From an uncultured Verrucomicrobiae bacterium (lineage in GTDB: Bacteria; Verrucomicrobiota; Verrucomicrobiia; Limisphaerales; Palsa-1400): a DNA stretch of 64,000 bases. Positions 38,351-44,190 of the stretch are shown piece after piece (the stretch's first letter is position 1; every line of letters begins with the position of its first letter). The notes beneath the pieces were generated by a model. It was not told the origin of the DNA. It saw nothing but the letters and a program-made list of their open reading frames with translations, and searched no databases. A program made the position numbers and the translations under genes. The DNA is taken from positions 4,032,001 to 4,096,000 of the forward strand of contig OY969763.1 in assembly GCA_963702845.1 (NCBI GenBank), read 5' to 3'.

Positions 38351-38443
38351 TGTCTCTGTCTCCTGTCTCCGCTGCCCCAGAGCCGGAGACAAAACAAAAT
38401 TTGTCTCCGCCTTCAGCCCTCGGAGACAAGAGACACGGAGACA
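38351..38443 (+). repeat. GGAGACA-box palindromic element, copy A (93 bp)
   Basis: 3xTGTCTC(C)-14nt-GGAGACA-10nt-TGTCTCC-13nt-3x(G/A)GAGACA. Confidence 0.95.
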
Positions 38444-38591
38444 AAAATTACGATTGCACAGCACTGTGTGCCGCAACTACGCTCCTTCGATAAACACAAC
38501 ACCAATAAAACAGTGAAAGTTTTCCTCCTTTAACGTTCACTTATGAACTTAGCCGGAAAGAAGGAGTATATAATAATATAGTTCAGGCATT

Positions 38592-39044
38592 ATGAAGTTC
38601 TTCGCCTTTACGTGCTTGTTAATAATGGTGGTTGCATCCTGTTCAAAGGAGCCACGAAATGCCCCGCCCAAAGGAACTTTTGGCATTTCGGTCGATATTT
38701 CGGACCAAACTGCGCCTGTGCCGGTGTTATTTTTGGACGACTTTTTGTTGAAGCGCTCGTTCTCCAAGGCTGGCGGACTTTTCGACAATCGTCATGTGCT
38801 GCGAGGCATGTCATACGAGACCTCGCTAGGGGCTTCAGTTATCGTCAGCGTTGGTGAAGGGCCAAAGTTAAAGGTAGTGACTATAACCGGCGCCTTACGG
38901 AGGGACTCTAAAGATGACCTGGAAACGCTTAGGCCGGACCTCGAAGGAGAATTGCGAAGTCGGTTCCCAGGCAGAAAGATAAATTCATGGACAAATTCGC
39001 CGAACCAGAGCGCTCCAGCGCCTATGAGGTTTGTCAATACGTAG
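38592..39044 (+). CDS. Hypothetical lipoprotein; integron-type cassette ORF reading into its attC
   Basis: Lipobox VASC; lower GC; C-terminal PNQSAPA is encoded by the attC left arm. Confidence 0.75.
   Translation: MKFFAFTCLLIMVVASCSKEPRNAPPKGTFGISVDISDQTAPVPVLFLDDFLLKRSFSKAGGLFDNRHVLRGMSYETSLGASVIVSVGEGPKLKVVTITGALRRDSKDDLETLRPDLEGELRSRFPGRKINSWTNSPNQSAPAPMRFVNT
38999..39020 (+). other. attC site, left arm (R'' GCCGAAC, L'' GCTCCAGC), cut by IS insertion
   Basis: Complementary to the right arm at 40678-40747. Confidence 0.85.
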
Positions 39045-39239
39045 TGTGCGTCGATGATAGTTTTTTTGGGGTTGATCGCGCGGAGCGCAGTGGAACGAAG
39101 CGCAGTCGCGCGCGGCAGGCGGTTGGACATTGGTTCAATCCGCACCTGTTGTTCTTCTCGAGTCTCCGCTTATCTGTTCCTCTTCAAAGTTCCTTTCTTA
39201 TTTCTCTCAAAGCAGGTTGCGTGAAGTTTGCTGCATCGG

Positions 39240-39430
39240 TGTCGCCGCGTTTTGTGTGTCGGGAGTTTGTCCCGCACCAGCTCCTATCCGGACAGTTGAG
39301 ATAAGACTCAACGCCCACTGTGTCTTACTTGCCTGACTGCGGCGACCGGGGAGTCCGCCCCTTCTAACGGACGGATGAACGCAAGGTTCACCAGCTGAAG
39401 CTACGGACTGGACTCGCCCGATCGCAAATT
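39240..39430 (-). ncRNA. Predicted bridge/seek RNA of the IS110 element (boundaries approximate)
   Basis: Stem-internal loop-stem with segments matching the attC target, followed by segments matching the IS circle junction. Confidence 0.7.
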
Positions 39431-39482
39431 GTTTCACGCTCTTAACTCTGGAGGTTCTACTCACGAAAAAATTAAATGTGGT

Positions 39483-40634
39483 TCACACGCCGACCCAGCC
39501 GAGGTCTGCCATGGTGCAACGGCCGGTTCGCCAGCGCCAGAGGTCCACGGCCAGTTGCCGGGCAAGGGCAATGACAGTTTTCTTCTTCATGGCCGTGCCG
39601 GCGGCAAGTTTGGTTTTCATTTTAAGTGCGGCCTTCCACCCCGGTTGCCACATCAGAAAACGCCAGACCGCTTCCACCAGGATCGCTCTGACTCGTCCGT
39701 TGCCCATGCGATCGATGCTGCCGACGCGCCGTTTGCCTCCTGAACTGTGTTCGCCCGGGCAACATCCGGTGTAGCTGCCAATCTGTTTGCGATTGTGGAA
39801 GCGCTGCCAGTCGCACACTTCGCCTTCCAGTGTCACAAGAGTGATCTCGCCAAGGCCCTTGGGCCGTGGTTGTTCTTTGACCCGCGCAATCAGTTCCTCT
39901 TCCAGTTCCTGCCGTTGTGTCTCCATGGCGACGAGGACCTCGCGGAGCTTTTCGAGAACACTGAGCAGCCACGGATCGAGGGTGGAAAGTTTTTTCCAGT
40001 TGCGCGCTCCCCACCAGCGATGGGGCAGTTTGACGTGGCTGTATTCGGCGGCTTGGCCGTGACCGCGATTGGCGAGCATGCGAATGGCTTTGTTGAGGAA
40101 CTGTCTTCGTCGCGTGCCTTCGCGCTGGCGCTGCTCTTTGTCCGAAGGAATGCGGATGGGTGCAAGTTCGTTGATGTTGCCATCAACCCAGCGAGAGAGG
40201 CGCAGGCAAAGAGCGCGCGCGTCCAGCTTGTCGGTCTTGCGCTGGCCGTTGAGGGCAATCGGCGTGATCAAAAAACTTTGCGCACCGGCGGCGACCAGTT
40301 CGCGATGGAGCACGAAGCCGAACCCACAGCTTTCCTGCACGCAGAAAACTTGCAGGCCTTCGCTGGTCCACTTCTGAACCTGGGCGATGAGTTGCTCACG
40401 GCTGAATTTGCGTGGCGCTTGGGGTGAAGCGTGATCACGTTGGGCTACCGCCATGATGAACTCCAGATGCACGTCCAGGCCAAGCTTGAGAGCCGGTTTG
40501 CCGGCAAGCAGCACAGGACGTGGCAAAGGCTGGCGCGGCGGCACGTTTGCCAGCTTGCCCGCGGCAGGCACGCTGGTTAGGGTTGGGACTGTCATGTGGG
40601 GTTTGAGTAAATATGTTTTCATTTTCAAAAACAT
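39483..40634 (-). CDS. IS110 family transposase/recombinase
   Basis: RuvC-like GLDVH, QESCG, KTDKLDA; C-terminal YTGCCPGEHSSGG and GNGRVRAILVEA, ALARQL. Confidence 0.95.
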   Translation of the reverse strand: MFLKMKTYLLKPHMTVPTLTSVPAAGKLANVPPRQPLPRPVLLAGKPALKLGLDVHLEFIMAVAQRDHASPQAPRKFSREQLIAQVQKWTSEGLQVFCVQESCGFGFVLHRELVAAGAQSFLITPIALNGQRKTDKLDARALCLRLSRWVDGNINELAPIRIPSDKEQRQREGTRRRQFLNKAIRMLANRGHGQAAEYSHVKLPHRWWGARNWKKLSTLDPWLLSVLEKLREVLVAMETQRQELEEELIARVKEQPRPKGLGEITLVTLEGEVCDWQRFHNRKQIGSYTGCCPGEHSSGGKRRVGSIDRMGNGRVRAILVEAVWRFLMWQPGWKAALKMKTKLAAGTAMKKKTVIALARQLAVDLWRWRTGRCTMADLGWVGV

Positions 40635-40677
40635 CGTGACCCCGTGTGGGGCTGCGACTCAACCCTTCATGACATCT

Positions 40678-40747
40678 GACGGCGGGACGACGCTGCGTTT
40701 ACCATCCACGAGTCAGTGGCCCGCCGCCGCTGACCTTATCGTTCGGC
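40678..40747 (+). other. attC site, right part (L' GCTGACC, R' GTTCGGC)
   Basis: GACGGCGGG...CCCGCCGCCGCTGACCTTATCGTTCGGC. Confidence 0.85.
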
Positions 40748-40772
40748 AGTGCCAGGCGGCGGATTGATCATC

Positions 40773-40865
40773 TGTCTCTTGTCTCCTGTCTCCGGTGCCC
40801 CGAGCCGGAGACAAAACAGAATTTGTCTCCGCCGTAAGCCTCCGGAGACAGGAGACACGGAGACA
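40773..40865 (+). repeat. GGAGACA-box palindromic element, copy B (93 bp)
   Basis: Same eight-box layout, spacers 13/10/13; most similar to copy A. Confidence 0.95.
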
Positions 40866-40869
40866 AACG

Positions 40870-41133
40870 TCAATTGCGCCAATTCCCTGTAAAAACTGTG
40901 TCGGCGTTATTCCGGCGAAGTTCAGCCAGGAGTTTCTCAGCGGCGGACGCTCCGCTCTGGTAAAGCTCGTGGGACGGTTGCTCATTCGGTTCGTGCGGGT
41001 TGTCGTCGCGACTGGAGCTGTGGCCTAACACGACGACGTCGTGAAAGGCGGAGAAATAGTCGTAAATGACATCCGCGCTAAATTGCTTTTCCAAAGCGCT
41101 CGCGATGCGCTCTAAATGTTCTTTGTTGTTCAT
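40870..41133 (-). CDS. Hypothetical 87-aa protein between elements B and C
   Basis: The ORF fills the interval; no motif recognised. Confidence 0.55.
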   Translation of the reverse strand: MNNKEHLERIASALEKQFSADVIYDYFSAFHDVVVLGHSSSRDDNPHEPNEQPSHELYQSGASAAEKLLAELRRNNADTVFTGNWRN

Positions 41134-41191
41134 AGTCTTGGGTGCTTTCTAAGTTCTTAGCTTCTGTTCGTAATTGGTTAATCGTTAAAGT

Positions 41192-41284
41192 TGTCTCTGT
41201 GTCTCCTGTCTCCAAGGGCGCGAAGCCGGAGACAAATTTATTTTGTCTCCACCCTTTGGGGCCGGAGACAGGAGACAAGAGACA
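41192..41284 (-). repeat. GGAGACA-box palindromic element, copy C (93 bp, inverted relative to A/B)
   Basis: Same layout, spacers 14/9/13; begins 2 bp after the helicase stop codon. Confidence 0.95.
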
Positions 41285-41286
41285 AC

Positions 41287-42833
41287 TCAACAGGCCAGGT
41301 AAACCTCGTCGGCGTCGTTGAACCGGATGTGGCCGGAGTCTTCGGCGCGTTTGATGAAACGATACGCACTGGTGCGAATACACCCGGACTCGGCCATGAT
41401 CGCCTTGGCCAAATCGGCCTTGGCTTGCGGCGTCGCACAGAGGTCGCGCACGCGTTGCGGGGCCACCATCCCTTCTACCGGTTTGGAATCGGCCAATTGG
41501 GTCTGCCATTCGTTCCAGTCAAACTCCCCATCCACTTCATAGATCATCCGTTCAGTGTCTAAACGGGCGGCAAAACGCGGGAATTCCTTCCCGTTGTTGT
41601 TCTTGCCGCAACTGACAATGAGCGAGCCGTTGTCCTCCGCCGACCCGAGCGCGATGTTGATCTGCGCGCGCGTCCAGGCGTGCAAGACCTTGGAATTGCG
41701 ACCGTAACTGGCGCGTTCGAACCCAACGGCTTTGCCCACGCCCGCTTTGCCGGTCAAGGCATGGTGCAGGACGACGATGGCACGTTGCGGATTTTCCGCG
41801 CCCGCGACGCGGCTCAAAAATTGCAACGACCGGCGCATTTCGGCGTCGTTGTTCAAGTCGCCGTTGGCAATGTTGTAGAGCGCATCGATGGCAACGATGT
41901 CCGGCGCGTGTTGCGCGATCGCTCGCTTCATGCCAGCCACGGCTGTCGTTGCTTCCAACGAGAGGAAGCTATCCTCCTCGGTTTCGAGCGTGTGAATGAG
42001 CAGTTGTTCGCAGACGGTTTTCCAGCCTTCCTCGCCCGTCCACGCGCGCAAATGTTCCAGGTCGGCGCGCAGGCGGCGATTGGAATTTTCCGCCTGCAAG
42101 ATCAACCAGCGCTTGCCCTGGGCGCGCGTCGGCAGGCCAAGGAAATCGCGGCCAATGATGCAAGCCGCCGCCAATTGCAACAACAAGCGGCTCTTGCCGA
42201 TGCCACCGGGCCCGAGAATGGTCGTGCTCTGGCCAGCGGCGATCAAGCGGTCGCCCATGTAACAATCGGTCTCATCAAAGGACATGGCGAGGATTTCATC
42301 CGGCCGGCGCATGGTCAGAGTGGAGGCTTTGTTTTCACGCGCGAACTCCAGCACACGTTCCAGATCGTCGCAACCGAATCGAGCGGTTCCAACGGATCAT
42401 GGGCACAAGCCTGGACACAGGCAGCGTGCCTGATCACCTGGCGACGTTTGCGCAACTCGTGCAGTTGTTGGACATATTGCTCAAAGGGCCCGTTCATAAA
42501 GTCGGGCAATCCCATTAGATATCCCAGGTCCCCCGCCTCCTGCAGTTTGCCTTCGTCCCTGGCGCGCTGGCTGACCGTCATCAGATCGGGCAACAACTTG
42601 TCGCGCATCACCGCTTTAATCAGCTTAAAGATGGTTTGGTGACGCAGGACGTAGAACGATTGGGCGTTGATGCCAAGTCGCTCGATGTCCTGCGCCACCT
42701 CTTTCGGCCAATAAAGGATTTTCCCCAACACCGTCGCCTCGATCTCCTCGCTGTGCGGCGGCACTTTTTCCACCGGGAGCGCAGCCCCGACGCGTCGCGC
42801 AGGGCTAACGTAATCTTCAATTATAGGTTCCAT
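41287..42833 (-). CDS. DnaB N-terminal-like domain + AAA_25 (RepA-like SF4) helicase + C-terminal wHTH; probably one ~515-aa protein with a frameshift near 42365
   Basis: PPHSEEIEATVLG (DnaB-N), Walker A GPGGIGKS, QAEN, Walker B IVAIDAL, VVLHH; basic helical C-terminus; SD AGGAAAGGA before ATG 42833. Confidence 0.8.
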
Positions 42834-42985: not shown

Positions 42986-43089
42986 TGTCTCTTGCAGTAA
43001 GTTTGTCTCATATCTCAGGCAGCGCAAGGGTGAGACAACTCGCGATTTGTCTCAGCCTCCGGCACCCGGAGACAAGAGACACGGAGACA
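42986..43089 (+). repeat. GGAGACA-box palindromic element, copy D (diverged)
   Basis: TGTCTCA/TGAGACA variant boxes, spacers 13/10/13, three terminal GAGACA boxes. Confidence 0.9.
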
Positions 43090-43117
43090 ACCGGGGCCTA
43101 CAGCCTTACATCACCGT

Positions 43118-44137: not shown

Positions 44138-44148
44138 TCGAAAGAATC

Positions 44149-44190
44149 TGTCTCATCCTCCAGCACCCGGAGACAGGAGACACGGAGACA
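44149..44190 (+). repeat. GGAGACA-box element, copy E (right half only)
   Basis: TGTCTCA-13nt-GGAGACA GGAGACA C GGAGACA, nearly identical to the right arm of copy D. Confidence 0.9.

What the first reader, a model, noticed from the sequence alone, without database searches (positions are those of the whole stretch)
39240..39430. Readable bridge/seek RNA guides matching both the attC target and the IS circle junction
On the minus strand, just 3' of the transposase, a stem (AGUCCGU/GCGGACU, with a further outer GCGAUCGGG/CCCGGUCGC) encloses GCUUCAGC-U-[hairpin GGUGAAC/GUUCAUC]-CGUCCG. GCUUCAGC (39394-39401) matches the target's left side GCTCCAGC at 7 of 8 positions. CCGUCCG (39368-39374) is the exact reverse complement of CG|GACGG across the insertion point. 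Further 3', AUCUC (39298-39302) and AUAGGAG (39281-39287) match the two strands of the predicted circle junction GACATCT|CCTATG. This is the target-loop/donor-loop layout of IS110 bridge RNAs, here programmed for attC L boxes, and it independently supports the inferred IS ends. It is a candidate programmable recombinase.
Basis: partly seen in the sequence, partly recalled or inferred. Interest (0 to 1): 0.78.

Follow-up and report, generated by a model that had tools for sequence, protein, structure and literature searches.

The report
Guide RNA of attC-targeting insertion sequence
A 1.66-kb jumping gene carries, behind its transposase gene, a folded guide RNA whose two short loop segments spell out the integron-type repeat it lands in; this is a well-supported new example of a mechanism described in 2024, not a new kind of system.

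Summary
The window holds one of six copies of a 1657-bp IS1111-type insertion sequence (39021-40677, minus strand) sitting in an attC-like repeat. In this one sequence they are no more than chance would give. Relatives settle the matter: 13 genome loci and 80 metagenome loci.

- **Fold:** an 84-nt stem / internal loop / hairpin (39342-39425) is kept by compensatory changes. It is 95% paired, 14 of 26 pairs carry double changes, and 0 of 500 shuffles reach it.
- **5' guide:** GCUUCAGC (39394-39401) is right. It covaries with flank positions +2..+9.
- **3' guide:** It is CCGUU (39366-39370), matching flank -5..-1 and followed by AGA, the first bases of the element.
- **AUCUC:** a chance match inside a variable hairpin.
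- **AUAGGAG:** invariant and in a multiloop, but so are the element's ends, so its donor role cannot be tested here.

attC-targeting IS1111 members with a seekRNA (ISKpn4, ISPst6, ISPa25) were shown experimentally in 2024. This is a new, distant lineage of that kind. The scan noted similar elements before on other DNA. No RNA evidence exists for this organism.

The parts
39021..40677 (-). Whole insertion sequence, 1657 bp; one of six copies in the genome
   Evidence: six matches at 95-100% identity; common ends; uninterrupted target repeats fix the junctions, with no target duplication.
40660..40677 (-). Left end: 7-nt extension AGATGTC (40677-40671) and subterminal inverted repeat ATGAAGGGTTG (40670-40660). 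CATGAA 40671-40666, preceded by TG, would serve as the -10 of a junction promoter.
   Evidence: The 7-nt/3-nt extensions are the IS1111 hallmark quoted in PMC11187229 (Introduction passage). The promoter reading is by eye.
39483..40634 (-). Transposase gene, 383 codons from the first ATG. The likely start is M5 (40622) by conservation. Carries DEDD and G-x2-P-x4-SG motifs.
   Evidence: NCBIfam NF033542 'IS110 family RNA-guided transposase', 171.7 bits against a cut-off of 140. Pfam PF02371 E 4.6e-16; PF01548 only 18.2 bits, below its cut-off. Invariant columns; translation.
39342..39425 (-). 84-nt structured core of the guide RNA (seekRNA-like): stems P1-P3 enclosing an internal loop with a central hairpin
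   Evidence: 59 sequences, 26 pairs, 95.0% of cells paired, 14 pairs with double changes, 0 of 500 shuffles as high; slid controls 42-54% paired. RNAalifold on 51 sequences finds the same stems.
39394..39401 (-). 5' guide GCUUCAGC. It pairs with the transposase-sense strand of the right flank at +2..+9 (GCTGAAGC, or GCTGGAGC through one G:U).
   Evidence: Flanks match exactly, or through one G:U, in at least one de-duplicated row for 5 of 6 guide variants. Mean 7.23 of 8 Watson-Crick pairs over 61 rows, against a permuted maximum of 6.80 (0 of 2000).
39374..39392 (-). Central hairpin GGUGAAC / CUUGC / GUUCAUC between the two guides
   Evidence: helix 2: 5 of 7 pairs with double changes, 82% of cells paired.
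39361..39370 (-). 3' guide CCGUU (39370-39366), identical to left flank -5..-1 (one U opposite G), so it pairs with the other strand. It is followed by AGAAG (39365-39361), whose AGA equals the first bases of the element.
   Evidence: variants GGGUU, ACUUU, GGCUU, GCGUC, GCGUU and CGGUU track the flanks. Mean 4.33 of 5 over 64 rows, against a permuted maximum of 4.00 (0 of 2000). AGA follows in 64 of 65 rows.
39241..39341 (-). Second RNA domain. A long-range stem (GUCGCCGC 39346-39339 with GCGGCGAC 39248-39241, competing with the end of P1) closes a multiloop. The multiloop holds hairpin 39317-39289, the single strand GGAUAGGAGCUGGUG and a variable hairpin 39274-39260.
   Evidence: hairpin 39317-39289 has 6 pairs with 2-34 double changes. 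The closing stem is almost invariant, so it is untested.
39281..39287 (-). AUAGGAG: candidate donor guide, equal to the last 5 nt of the right end plus the first 2 nt of the left end
   Evidence: Present in 79 of 80 rows holding at least 200 nt of the RNA region. The ends are invariant too, so there is no covariation test. A 7-mer across the junction arises in 430 of 2000 shuffles.
39021..39037 (-). Right end: TTGACA (39037-39032, a possible -35 of the junction promoter), subterminal repeat CAAACCTCAT (39033-39024) and 3-nt extension AGG (39023-39021)
   Evidence: TTGAC...CATAGG is kept in all relatives with a right end.
40678..40747 (-). Larger part of the attC-like target repeat, from the box GCCGAAC (40747-40741) to ...CCCGCCGTC
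   Evidence: The same repeat occurs uninterrupted at 11 other places in the genome.
38999..39020 (-). Smaller part of the target repeat: CGCTGGAGCGCTCTG, then the box GTTCGGC (39005-38999), the inverse of GCCGAAC

Best explanation
The stretch is the guide-RNA gene of an IS1111-type insertion sequence. The 3' non-coding region is transcribed. An about 84-nt core (39425-39342) folds into a long stem that holds open an internal loop. The 5' loop strand (GCUUCAGC) pairs with one DNA strand to the right of the insertion point (+2..+9). The 3' loop strand (CCGUU) pairs with the other strand to the left (-5..-1). Together these 13 nt place the DEDD transposase on one arm of an attC-like repeat, beside a bulged base. 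The element, excised as a circle with junction ...CATAGG|AGATGTC..., is then inserted in one orientation without a duplication. Shown here: the ends, the target, the conserved fold, and the covariation of both loop strands with the flanks. Inferred from relatives studied by others: that the RNA is made, binds the transposase and is needed for movement. Open: how the donor is recognised. The invariant AUAGGAG in the second domain is a candidate.
For: Ends and target: six copies share the ends, and empty sites fix the junctions. IS1111 hallmarks: subterminal repeats with 7-nt and 3-nt extensions, no duplication, and a 465-nt region from the stop codon to the right end. Fold: 95% of cells paired, 14 of 26 pairs with double changes, 0 of 500 shuffles, slid controls 42-54%. 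Guide-flank covariation over de-duplicated rows from 6 own copies and 84 relatives: the 5' guide reaches 7.23 of 8 (n=61) and the 3' guide 4.33 of 5 (n=64), and neither is reached by any of 2000 permutations. The highest mutual information sits at the expected positions: RNA position 28 with +5 is complementary in 49 of 54 rows, position 26 with +7 in 48 of 54, and 3' position 10 with -4 is identical in 46 of 54. Distinct guide variants sit beside matching flanks: GCCGGAGC beside GCTCCGGC in 11 of 12 rows, ACUGGAGC beside GCTCCAGT in 2 of 2, ACUUU beside ACTTT in 2 of 2, GGCUU beside GGCTT in 1 of 1, and GCGUC beside GCGTC in 1 of 1. In L041 an unoccupied attC of another sequence type lies just upstream of the occupied, guide-matching one. 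The order (top-strand match 5' of bottom-strand match) and the size agree with the seekRNAs of ISEc11, ISPa11 and ISKpn4 (PMC11187229 section 9; PMC13604230 Table 1). A covariance model of the core finds exactly the six IS copies in the genome.
Against: There is no RNA evidence for this organism. No public run holds half or more of the element's sampled words (the best holds 0.31). The only RNA-library piece is one soil metatranscriptome contig of a relative over 39308-39575, which may be DNA carry-over. In this sequence alone the matches are at chance level. Not every row fits. 12 of 35 CGGUU rows sit beside GGGTT (one mismatch). The own-genome copy L006 has a non-matching left flank and one mismatch to its 5' guide. 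L030 (guide GCGUCAGC) has a right flank that does not fit at all. Rows are related, so permutation overstates independence. The two target matches do not overlap as reported for ISEc11. The transposase has no sequence match to any solved structure. Its N-terminal DEDD Pfam domain scores below cut-off.
Confidence: 0.85

Rival explanations
1. Full two-loop bridge RNA. The second domain (39341-39241) is a donor-binding part, and AUAGGAG pairs with the circle junction (RE -5..-1 plus LE +1..+2), as the target loop's 3' strand does with the left flank plus AGA. This adds to the best explanation rather than excluding it.
For: AUAGGAG is invariant in 79 of 80 rows and lies single-stranded in a multiloop between covarying hairpins. 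Durrant et al. report donor-binding nucleotides in a multiloop for many IS1111 members (PMC11208160, passage). Both modules share the layout guide-CUGGUG-hairpin. The one relative with a changed right end (CACAGG, L025) keeps pairing through G:U.
Against: There is no covariation, because neither side varies. A 7-mer match is expected in about a fifth of shuffles. No second donor guide was found. AUCUC is not conserved. For ISEc11 the short 82-nt RNA, without a second domain, sufficed for movement (PMC11187229 section 10). The same RNA stretch matches the right junction RE+RF about as well (by eye).
Confidence: 0.4
2. One reading: CCGUCCG reads across the insertion point (-5..+2), and AUCUC plus AUAGGAG form a donor loop.
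For: CCGUCCG is an exact 7-of-7 match in five of the six own copies' targets, and AUCUC complements GAGAT at the junction.
Against: In relatives the same columns read CCGUCGG, CCGUGGG or CCGUACU. These do not match their junctions in that register, but match them in the register 4 nt downstream. AUCUC lies in hairpin 39317-39289, whose loop and stem differ in nearly every relative while the left end stays AGATG.
Confidence: 0.07
3. No guide RNA. The conserved region is a protein-binding or single-stranded-DNA element, or an mRNA 3' structure, and the flank similarity reflects protein-determined site choice or shared descent.
For: No transcript is shown here. The target is itself a hairpin-forming repeat that could be recognised as structure.
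Against: Position-by-position complementarity switches with the flank in several independent variants and on opposite strands for the two segments. The guides lie about 345-380 nt inside the right end, not at the termini. Related elements need and bind the RNA (PMC11187229, abstract and sections 8-10).
Confidence: 0.04

Closest known systems
seekRNAs of the attC-targeting IS1111 members ISKpn4, ISPst6 and ISPa25 (Siddiquee et al. 2024, PMC11187229; targets in PMC13604230 Table 1)
   Same: The transposase is followed by a long non-coding region giving a structured RNA of about 82-86 nt. The top-strand match lies 5' of the bottom-strand match. The target is one end of an attC site, on the arm that ends in GTT..., in one orientation, with insertion 5' of CG and no duplication.
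   Different: The insertion point differs: 15 nt from the GTT box here against 8 nt in AA*CGAATTGTTAG. The guide sequences differ. The transposase is only distantly related to any plasmid-borne IS110-family protein (at most 34% over long matches). It carries an N-terminal extension of about 45 residues. Relatives lie in MAGs whose records are labelled Verrucomicrobiota. A direct comparison with the ISKpn4 RNA fold was not possible, because Supplementary Fig. 7 is a PDF not held.
ISEc11 seekRNA (PMC11187229 sections 7, 9, 10)
   Same: 7-nt and 3-nt terminal extensions, a junction promoter formed on circularisation, about 13 nt of target recognised by two RNA segments, and natural retargeting between close relatives (ISEc11/ISXne4), as seen here between guide variants.
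   Different: ISEc11 uses a linear target, and its two matches overlap in the target. Here they cover -5..-1 and +2..+9.
IS621 bridge RNA (Durrant et al. 2024, PMC11208160)
   Same: A DEDD recombinase with an SG motif. RNA internal-loop strands pair with opposite strands on either side of the crossover. A guide segment is followed by bases of the partner DNA (here AGA of the left end), which recalls the handshake guides of IS621 (recalled, not checked in a call).
   Different: The RNA is encoded at the right end, not the left, and the order of the strand matches is reversed. No clear shared core dinucleotide was found. The donor part is not an internal loop.

Membership tests
IS110 family RNA-guided transposase (NCBIfam NF033542) | Protein scores above the curated cut-off of the family model | tested here: met
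   171.7 bits against a cut-off of 140, residues 52-367 on profile positions 3-336 of 343
IS110 family RNA-guided transposase (NCBIfam NF033542) | DEDD catalytic residues and the G-x2-P-x4-S/T-G motif (PMC11187229 section 6) | tested here: met
   D54, E101, D135, D138 and G290-P293-S298-G299 are present. All but S298 are invariant among 5 intact relatives. The assignment as catalytic is by eye against motifs, not by structure. Pfam PF01548 scores only 18.2 bits against a cut-off of 29.
IS1111 group | Subterminal inverted repeats of about 11-13 bp | tested here: met
   ATGAAGGGTTG and CAAACCTCAT give 9 matches, 1 mismatch and 1 gap. In relatives they read ATGATGGGTTG / CAACCCTCAT.
IS1111 group | Terminal extensions of 7 bp (left) and 3 bp (right); no target duplication | tested here: met
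   AGATGTC and AGG lie outside the repeats. Filled and empty sites differ by exactly the element. The rule is quoted from PMC11187229.
IS1111 group | Long non-coding region downstream of the transposase gene | tested here: met
   465 nt from the stop codon to the right end (462 nt after it), against 43 nt before the first ATG
IS1111 group | Transposase of 330-350 aa, related over its full length to that of IS1111 | tested here: inconclusive
   379-383 aa, with the excess in an N-terminal extension. 27% identity over 49-376 to an ISSso6-family protein. 23% over 122-328 to an unnamed IS110-family protein abutting a Tn3-family transposase gene in a Klebsiella plasmid, probably IS4321/IS5075-like by my inference. 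No tree was made.
seekRNA (Siddiquee et al. 2024) | [quoted passage not shown] | tested here: met
seekRNA (Siddiquee et al. 2024) | The two matches overlap in the target | tested here: not met
The family-wide registers are -5..-1 and +2..+9.
seekRNA (Siddiquee et al. 2024) | A 70-100 nt RNA that co-purifies with the transposase and is needed for movement | not testable with these tools
   There is only a conserved 84-nt fold and one metatranscriptome contig of a relative.
IS1111-attC subgroup (Tetu and Holmes 2008; described in PMC3001079) | Inserted in attC near its 5' end, antisense to the cassettes | tested here: inconclusive
   The target has inverse boxes (GCCGAAC/GTTCGGC; in relatives GCCTAAC/GTTAGGC) and imperfectly paired arms with a bulged base at the insertion point. 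The longer arm is the one hit, which would make the element antisense. But the folds are no more stable than shuffles (z 0.13 to 0.58), no attC model was on hand, and cassette genes were not established.
IS1111-attC subgroup (Tetu and Holmes 2008; described in PMC3001079) | Transposase falls in the monophyletic clade of ISPst6 and ISPa21 | not tested
   Reference proteins were seen only as printed text of a supplement and were not put into tools. The low identity to all plasmid-borne relatives suggests a separate lineage.
Integron attC site | Association with an integron integrase | tested here: inconclusive
   Own genome: best TIGR02249 match 85.9 bits against a cut-off of 265. Genomes of 5 relatives: 2 over the cut-off (422.2 and 375.7 bits), plus one 93-residue fragment.
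Bridge RNA (IS621 type) | A second loop with two guides for the donor | tested here: inconclusive
   One invariant 7-nt match (AUAGGAG) in a multiloop; no second guide; no covariation possible

The most novel reading that the evidence does not exclude
This may be an independent, deep-branching lineage that came to target attC separately from the gammaproteobacterial IS1111-attC group. Its RNA may show how IS1111-type elements read the donor. Both bottom-strand segments end in the element's own first bases (left-flank 5 nt + AGA in the target loop; right-end 5 nt + AG in the multiloop). One RNA would then spell out the left junction and the circle junction, with a shared core-like AG. That would be a handshake or core logic like that of IS621, in a family where donor recognition is unresolved.
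Probability: 0.2. Interest if true: 0.55.

Novelty: new member of a known kind. Interest (0 to 1): 0.32.

Why it matters
RNA-guided IS110/IS1111 recombinases are being developed as genome-editing tools, and attC sites are the recombination sites of integrons. This lineage offers a ready-made natural retargeting series: at least six 5' guide variants and seven 3' guide variants, most beside matching attC variants. It comes from about 90 elements outside the Proteobacteria. The series shows which RNA positions are read (8 + 5 nt), that G:U pairs are tolerated, and how an element tracks sequence drift in its target repeat. It does not change the picture of how such elements work.

Tried and rejected
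- **Rfam:** release 15 scanned over 38500-41500 at E up to 10. Nothing fell on the RNA. The only hits were spurious microRNA matches to a neighbouring palindromic repeat.
- **Solved structures:** the single protein and a 5-sequence profile gave no match.
- **Expression:** no run holds half or more of the element's sampled words. The contigs laid cannot show transcription or RNA ends.
- **Internal promoter:** none on the minus strand in the linear element.
- **Integron integrase:** none over the cut-off in the own genome.
- **RNA model in other genomes:** 0 matches in 150 other genomes sampled from the phylum. Only 30 candidates per genome were scored, under stricter filters, so this is not evidence of absence.
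- **Second donor guide:** I looked for one complementary to the left end. The candidates (the GACAC stretch, the GGGCGUUGA stretch) do not covary with the T/C and T/A changes in the left end (by eye).
- **AGAWG as a reader of the left end:** its fourth base agrees in only 28 of 65 rows.
- **Plasmid locus L110:** fetched in search of ISKpn4; it was not in an integron, so I dropped it.
- **Direct comparison with ISKpn4, ISPst6 and ISPa25:** not done. Their proteins were seen only as printed text, and their RNAs only in a PDF that is not held.
- **Paper not held:** PMC2447020.
- **Earlier notes:** a look-up by place for this genome returned nothing.

Full report
**What is at the coordinates.** On the minus strand a 383-codon gene (39483-40634) is followed by a 465-nt region from its stop codon to the right end (462 nt after the stop). 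The protein scores 171.7 bits on NCBIfam NF033542, 'IS110 family RNA-guided transposase', against a cut-off of 140. It matches Pfam PF02371 at E 4.6e-16. The N-terminal DEDD domain PF01548 reaches only 18.2 bits, below its cut-off of 29.

**The element and its ends.** The genome holds six copies, at 100, 99, 100, 99, 100 and 95% identity. It also holds eleven short matches to the DNA just left of the element.
- All six copies begin AGATGTCATGAAGGG and end ACCTCATAGG.
- The short matches are uninterrupted copies of the target, reading ...CCGCCGTC followed at once by CGCTGGA.. or a close variant.
- The element is therefore 39021-40677 (1657 bp), inserted without a duplication.
- Inside the ends lie imperfect inverted repeats, ATGAAGGGTTG and CAAACCTCAT. 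They are set back 7 nt on the left and 3 nt on the right.
- This is the arrangement that Siddiquee et al. give as the hallmark of the IS1111 family (PMC11187229, Introduction passage).
- Joining the ends would place TTGACA (39037-39032) 17 nt ahead of TG-n-CATGAA (40674-40666). That would be a junction promoter like the one described for ISEc11 (legend of their Fig. 2). This reading is by eye. The scan of the linear element found no minus-strand promoter.

**The target.** In transposase orientation the target reads: box GCCGAAC, one arm, a central part, a second arm ...CCCGCCGTC|CGCTGGAGCGCTCTG, then box GTTCGGC, the inverse of the first box.
- Relatives sit in repeats with GCCTAAC ... GTTAGGC.
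- The arm that is hit is 3 nt longer than its partner. In the one uninterrupted copy whose minimum-energy fold pairs both arms, the insertion point lies beside a single bulged base (L007).
- This is the architecture of integron attC sites. The longer arm being the one hit would make the element antisense to the cassettes and near the attC 5' end, as reported for the IS1111-attC group (PMC3001079, Discussion passage).
- The support is incomplete. The folds are no more stable than shuffles (z 0.13, -0.89, 0.33, 0.58), and I had no attC model.
- The own genome has no integron integrase. Its best TIGR02249 match is 85.9 bits against a cut-off of 265.
- Two of five genomes that carry relatives do have one (422.2 and 375.7 bits), and a third has a fragment.

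**Are the guide matches more than chance?** In this sequence alone, no. A 7-mer of the non-coding region that spans the target junction occurs in 557 of 2000 shuffles, and one that spans the donor junction in 430 of 2000. The test has to come from relatives.

**Relatives.**
- A genome scan gave 13 loci at 56-79% protein identity. Nearly all are in MAGs whose records are labelled Verrucomicrobiota.
- A metagenome scan gave 196 confirmed relatives among 595 candidates, of which the best 80 were kept.
- The non-coding region aligns at the DNA level.
- 90 rows (6 own copies and 84 relatives) carry the 5' anchor of the RNA. 85 of them have both loop strands, and 72 remain after removing duplicates.

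**The fold.**
- On 59 distinct sequences of the 84-nt core, my structure has 26 pairs. It consists of P1 (9 bp), P2 (6 bp), P3 (4 bp) and a central 7-bp hairpin.
- 95.0% of cells are paired and 14 pairs carry changes on both sides. None of 500 shuffles reaches any of the five measures. Sliding the partners by 1-3 columns drops pairing to 42-54%.
- RNAalifold on 51 longer sequences finds the same stems. It adds a second domain: a nearly invariant closing stem, an invariant 3-bp hairpin, and a strongly covarying hairpin (39317-39289) with up to 34 double changes per pair.
Across the family it pairs in 62% of cells.

**The 5' guide holds.** The 8 nt before the invariant UGGUG pair with the transposase-sense strand at +2..+9 of the right flank.

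| 5' guide | Right flank +2..+9 | Rows |
|---|---|---|
| GCUGCAGC | GCTGCAGC | 29 of 38 |
| GCCGGAGC | GCTCCGGC | 11 of 12 |
| ACUGGAGC | GCTCCAGT | 2 of 2 |
| GCUGGAGC | GCTCCAGC, or GCTCCGGC through G:U | 2 of 2 |
| GCUUCAGC (this element and L041) | GCTGAAGC (2 rows), or GCTGGAGC through G:U (4 rows) | 6 of 6 |

- The mean is 7.23 of 8 Watson-Crick pairs over 61 rows. Permuting the flanks gives a mean of 6.42 and a maximum of 6.80 in 2000 trials.
- The two highest sensible mutual-information pairs are RNA position 28 with +5 (complementary in 49 of 54 rows) and position 26 with +7 (48 of 54).
- One variant fails: GCGUCAGC in L030 has a right flank that does not fit, and an odd right end.

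**The 3' guide is shifted.** In relatives those columns read CCGUCGG, CCGUGGG or CCGUACU and do not match their junctions in that register. The 5 nt immediately before an invariant AGA do match the left flank -5..-1.

| 3' guide | Left flank -5..-1 | Rows |
|---|---|---|
| GGGUU | GGGTT | 10 of 13 |
| ACUUU | ACTTT | 2 of 2 |
| GGCUU | GGCTT | 1 of 1 |
| GCGUC | GCGTC | 1 of 1 |
| GCGUU | GCGTT | 2 of 6 (two more with one mismatch) |
| CGGUU | CGGTT | 14 of 35 (12 more beside GGGTT) |
| CCGUU (this element) | CCGTC, the last U facing G | 4 of 6 |

- The mean is 4.33 of 5 over 64 rows, against a permuted mean of 3.74 and a maximum of 4.00.
- Positions -4, -5 and -3 carry the signal.
- In the window the guide is 39370-39366.
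- The RNA segment is identical to the transposase-sense strand, so it pairs with the other strand.
- The order (top-strand match 5', bottom-strand match 3') is the order Siddiquee et al. report for IS1111-type seekRNAs (section 9).
- The guide is followed by AGA in 64 of 65 rows. AGA is the first three bases of the element, so the RNA spells the left junction of an inserted copy. The fourth base agrees with the left end in only 28 of 65 rows. I treat this as an observation, not a shown function.

**The donor loop.** AUCUC (39302-39298) is the end of the loop and the start of the 3' arm of hairpin 39317-39289. Relatives have quite different sequences there, with the stem kept by double changes, while their left ends stay AGATG or AGAAG. 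It is a chance match. AUAGGAG (39287-39281) is different.
- It is present in 79 of 80 rows that hold at least 200 nt of the region.
- It lies single-stranded in the multiloop.
- It equals the last five bases of the right end plus the first two of the left end.
- The ends do not vary either. The one exception is L025, CACAGG, where pairing survives as G:U. So there is nothing to test.
- For ISEc11 the short 82-nt RNA alone supported movement (PMC11187229 section 10).
- I found no second donor guide.

**Distribution and expression.**
- A covariance model of the core finds six places in the genome, all inside the six copies, with no orphan RNA genes.
- It finds none in 150 other genomes sampled from the phylum, under strict filters.
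- Rfam 15 has no matching family.
- No public run holds half or more of the element's sampled words; the best share is 0.31.
- One 269-nt contig from a soil metatranscriptome, about 92% alike, covers 39308-39575. That is the end of the gene and the RNA core of a relative. Such libraries can carry DNA, and contigs show neither ends nor strand.

**Comparison with what is known.**
- Siddiquee et al. (2024) showed that ISKpn4 and ISPst6 target one end of attC sites and make 82-86-nt seekRNAs that co-purify with the transposase. They found that ISPa25, with a 46%-identical transposase, has the same matches (sections 4, 8, 9).
- Their targets are CGGCTTGAA*CGAATTGTTAG and relatives (PMC13604230 Table 1). 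The insertion is 8 nt from the GTT box, also 5' of CG. Here it is 15 nt from the box.
- The protein is far from everything on plasmids. The best long matches are 26-34% identical.
- It is 27% identical over residues 49-376 to an ISSso6-family protein. It is 23% identical over 122-328 to an unnamed IS110-family protein beside a Tn3-family transposase gene.
- It carries a conserved, proline-rich N-terminal extension of about 45 residues before the first catalytic aspartate. This puts its length (379-383 aa) outside the 330-350 aa quoted for IS1111 transposases (section 6).
- Whether it belongs to the monophyletic IS1111-attC clade was not tested.
- Searches of the held library found no description of such elements in Verrucomicrobiota: 'IS1111-attC' (10 papers), 'attC' with 'bridge RNA' (1 paper), and 'Verrucomicrobi'/'IS110'/'attC' (listing only).
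- Earlier notes of this scan describe attC-targeting IS1111 guide RNAs in two other genomes. They agree with this reading and were not tested here.

**Verdict.** This is a real, well-supported guide RNA gene of an IS1111-type element aimed at an attC-like repeat. It is a new member of a known kind.

Noticed in passing
window 38357-38447, 40779-40869, 41199-41289, 43003-43093, 44146-44190: A family of about 91-nt imperfect palindromes built from GTCTCC/GGAGAC units, spaced 0.4-2.4 kb apart. One lies about 30 nt from the attC-like repeat. They caused the spurious microRNA hits in Rfam. They may be a second kind of intergenic repeat or cassette boundary.
   Followed up: no
own genome; L007-L012 and further places listed: The attC-like target repeat occurs uninterrupted at 11 other places, with small clusters near 1.70-1.73 Mb and 4.29-4.32 Mb. 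Yet the genome has no integron integrase above the family cut-off. These are attC-like sites without an integrase.
   Followed up: partly
L006 (own genome, the 95% copy): The diverged sixth copy carries the 5' guide GCUGCAGC instead of GCUUCAGC. Its left flank (…AGCATT) is not attC-like. Its right flank matches its guide in 7 of 8 positions. It may be an old or off-target insertion.
   Followed up: no
window 40499-40634 (residues 1-45 of the transposase): A conserved proline-rich N-terminal extension of about 45 residues precedes the first catalytic aspartate. It is absent from the ISSso6-family and Klebsiella IS110-family proteins compared. In this copy there is no internal methionine that would allow a shorter protein.
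   Followed up: partly
L030:1887-1960: A relative with guides GCGUCAGC and GCGUC. Its left flank fits (GCGTC). Its right end reads ...CTCATACT, and its right flank repeats the left-flank motif CCGGCGTCA instead of the expected complement. This is unexplained.
   Followed up: partly
L023, L046 and L048, right junctions: Two or five extra bases (GG, AGGGG) lie between the right end and the guide-matching CGCTGCAGCG. The distance between the crossover and the top-strand match is therefore not fixed.
   Followed up: no
window 39339-39350 with 39241-39248: GUCGCCGC can pair either within P1 of the 84-nt core or with GCGGCGAC about 100 nt downstream. The two folds are mutually exclusive and might distinguish a long precursor from a short mature RNA.
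   Followed up: no
L026:1-113 and L041:290-400: Relatives sit in arrays. L026 has the right end of a second element copy in the attC just upstream. L041 has an unoccupied attC of another sequence type upstream of the occupied, guide-matching one.
   Followed up: partly
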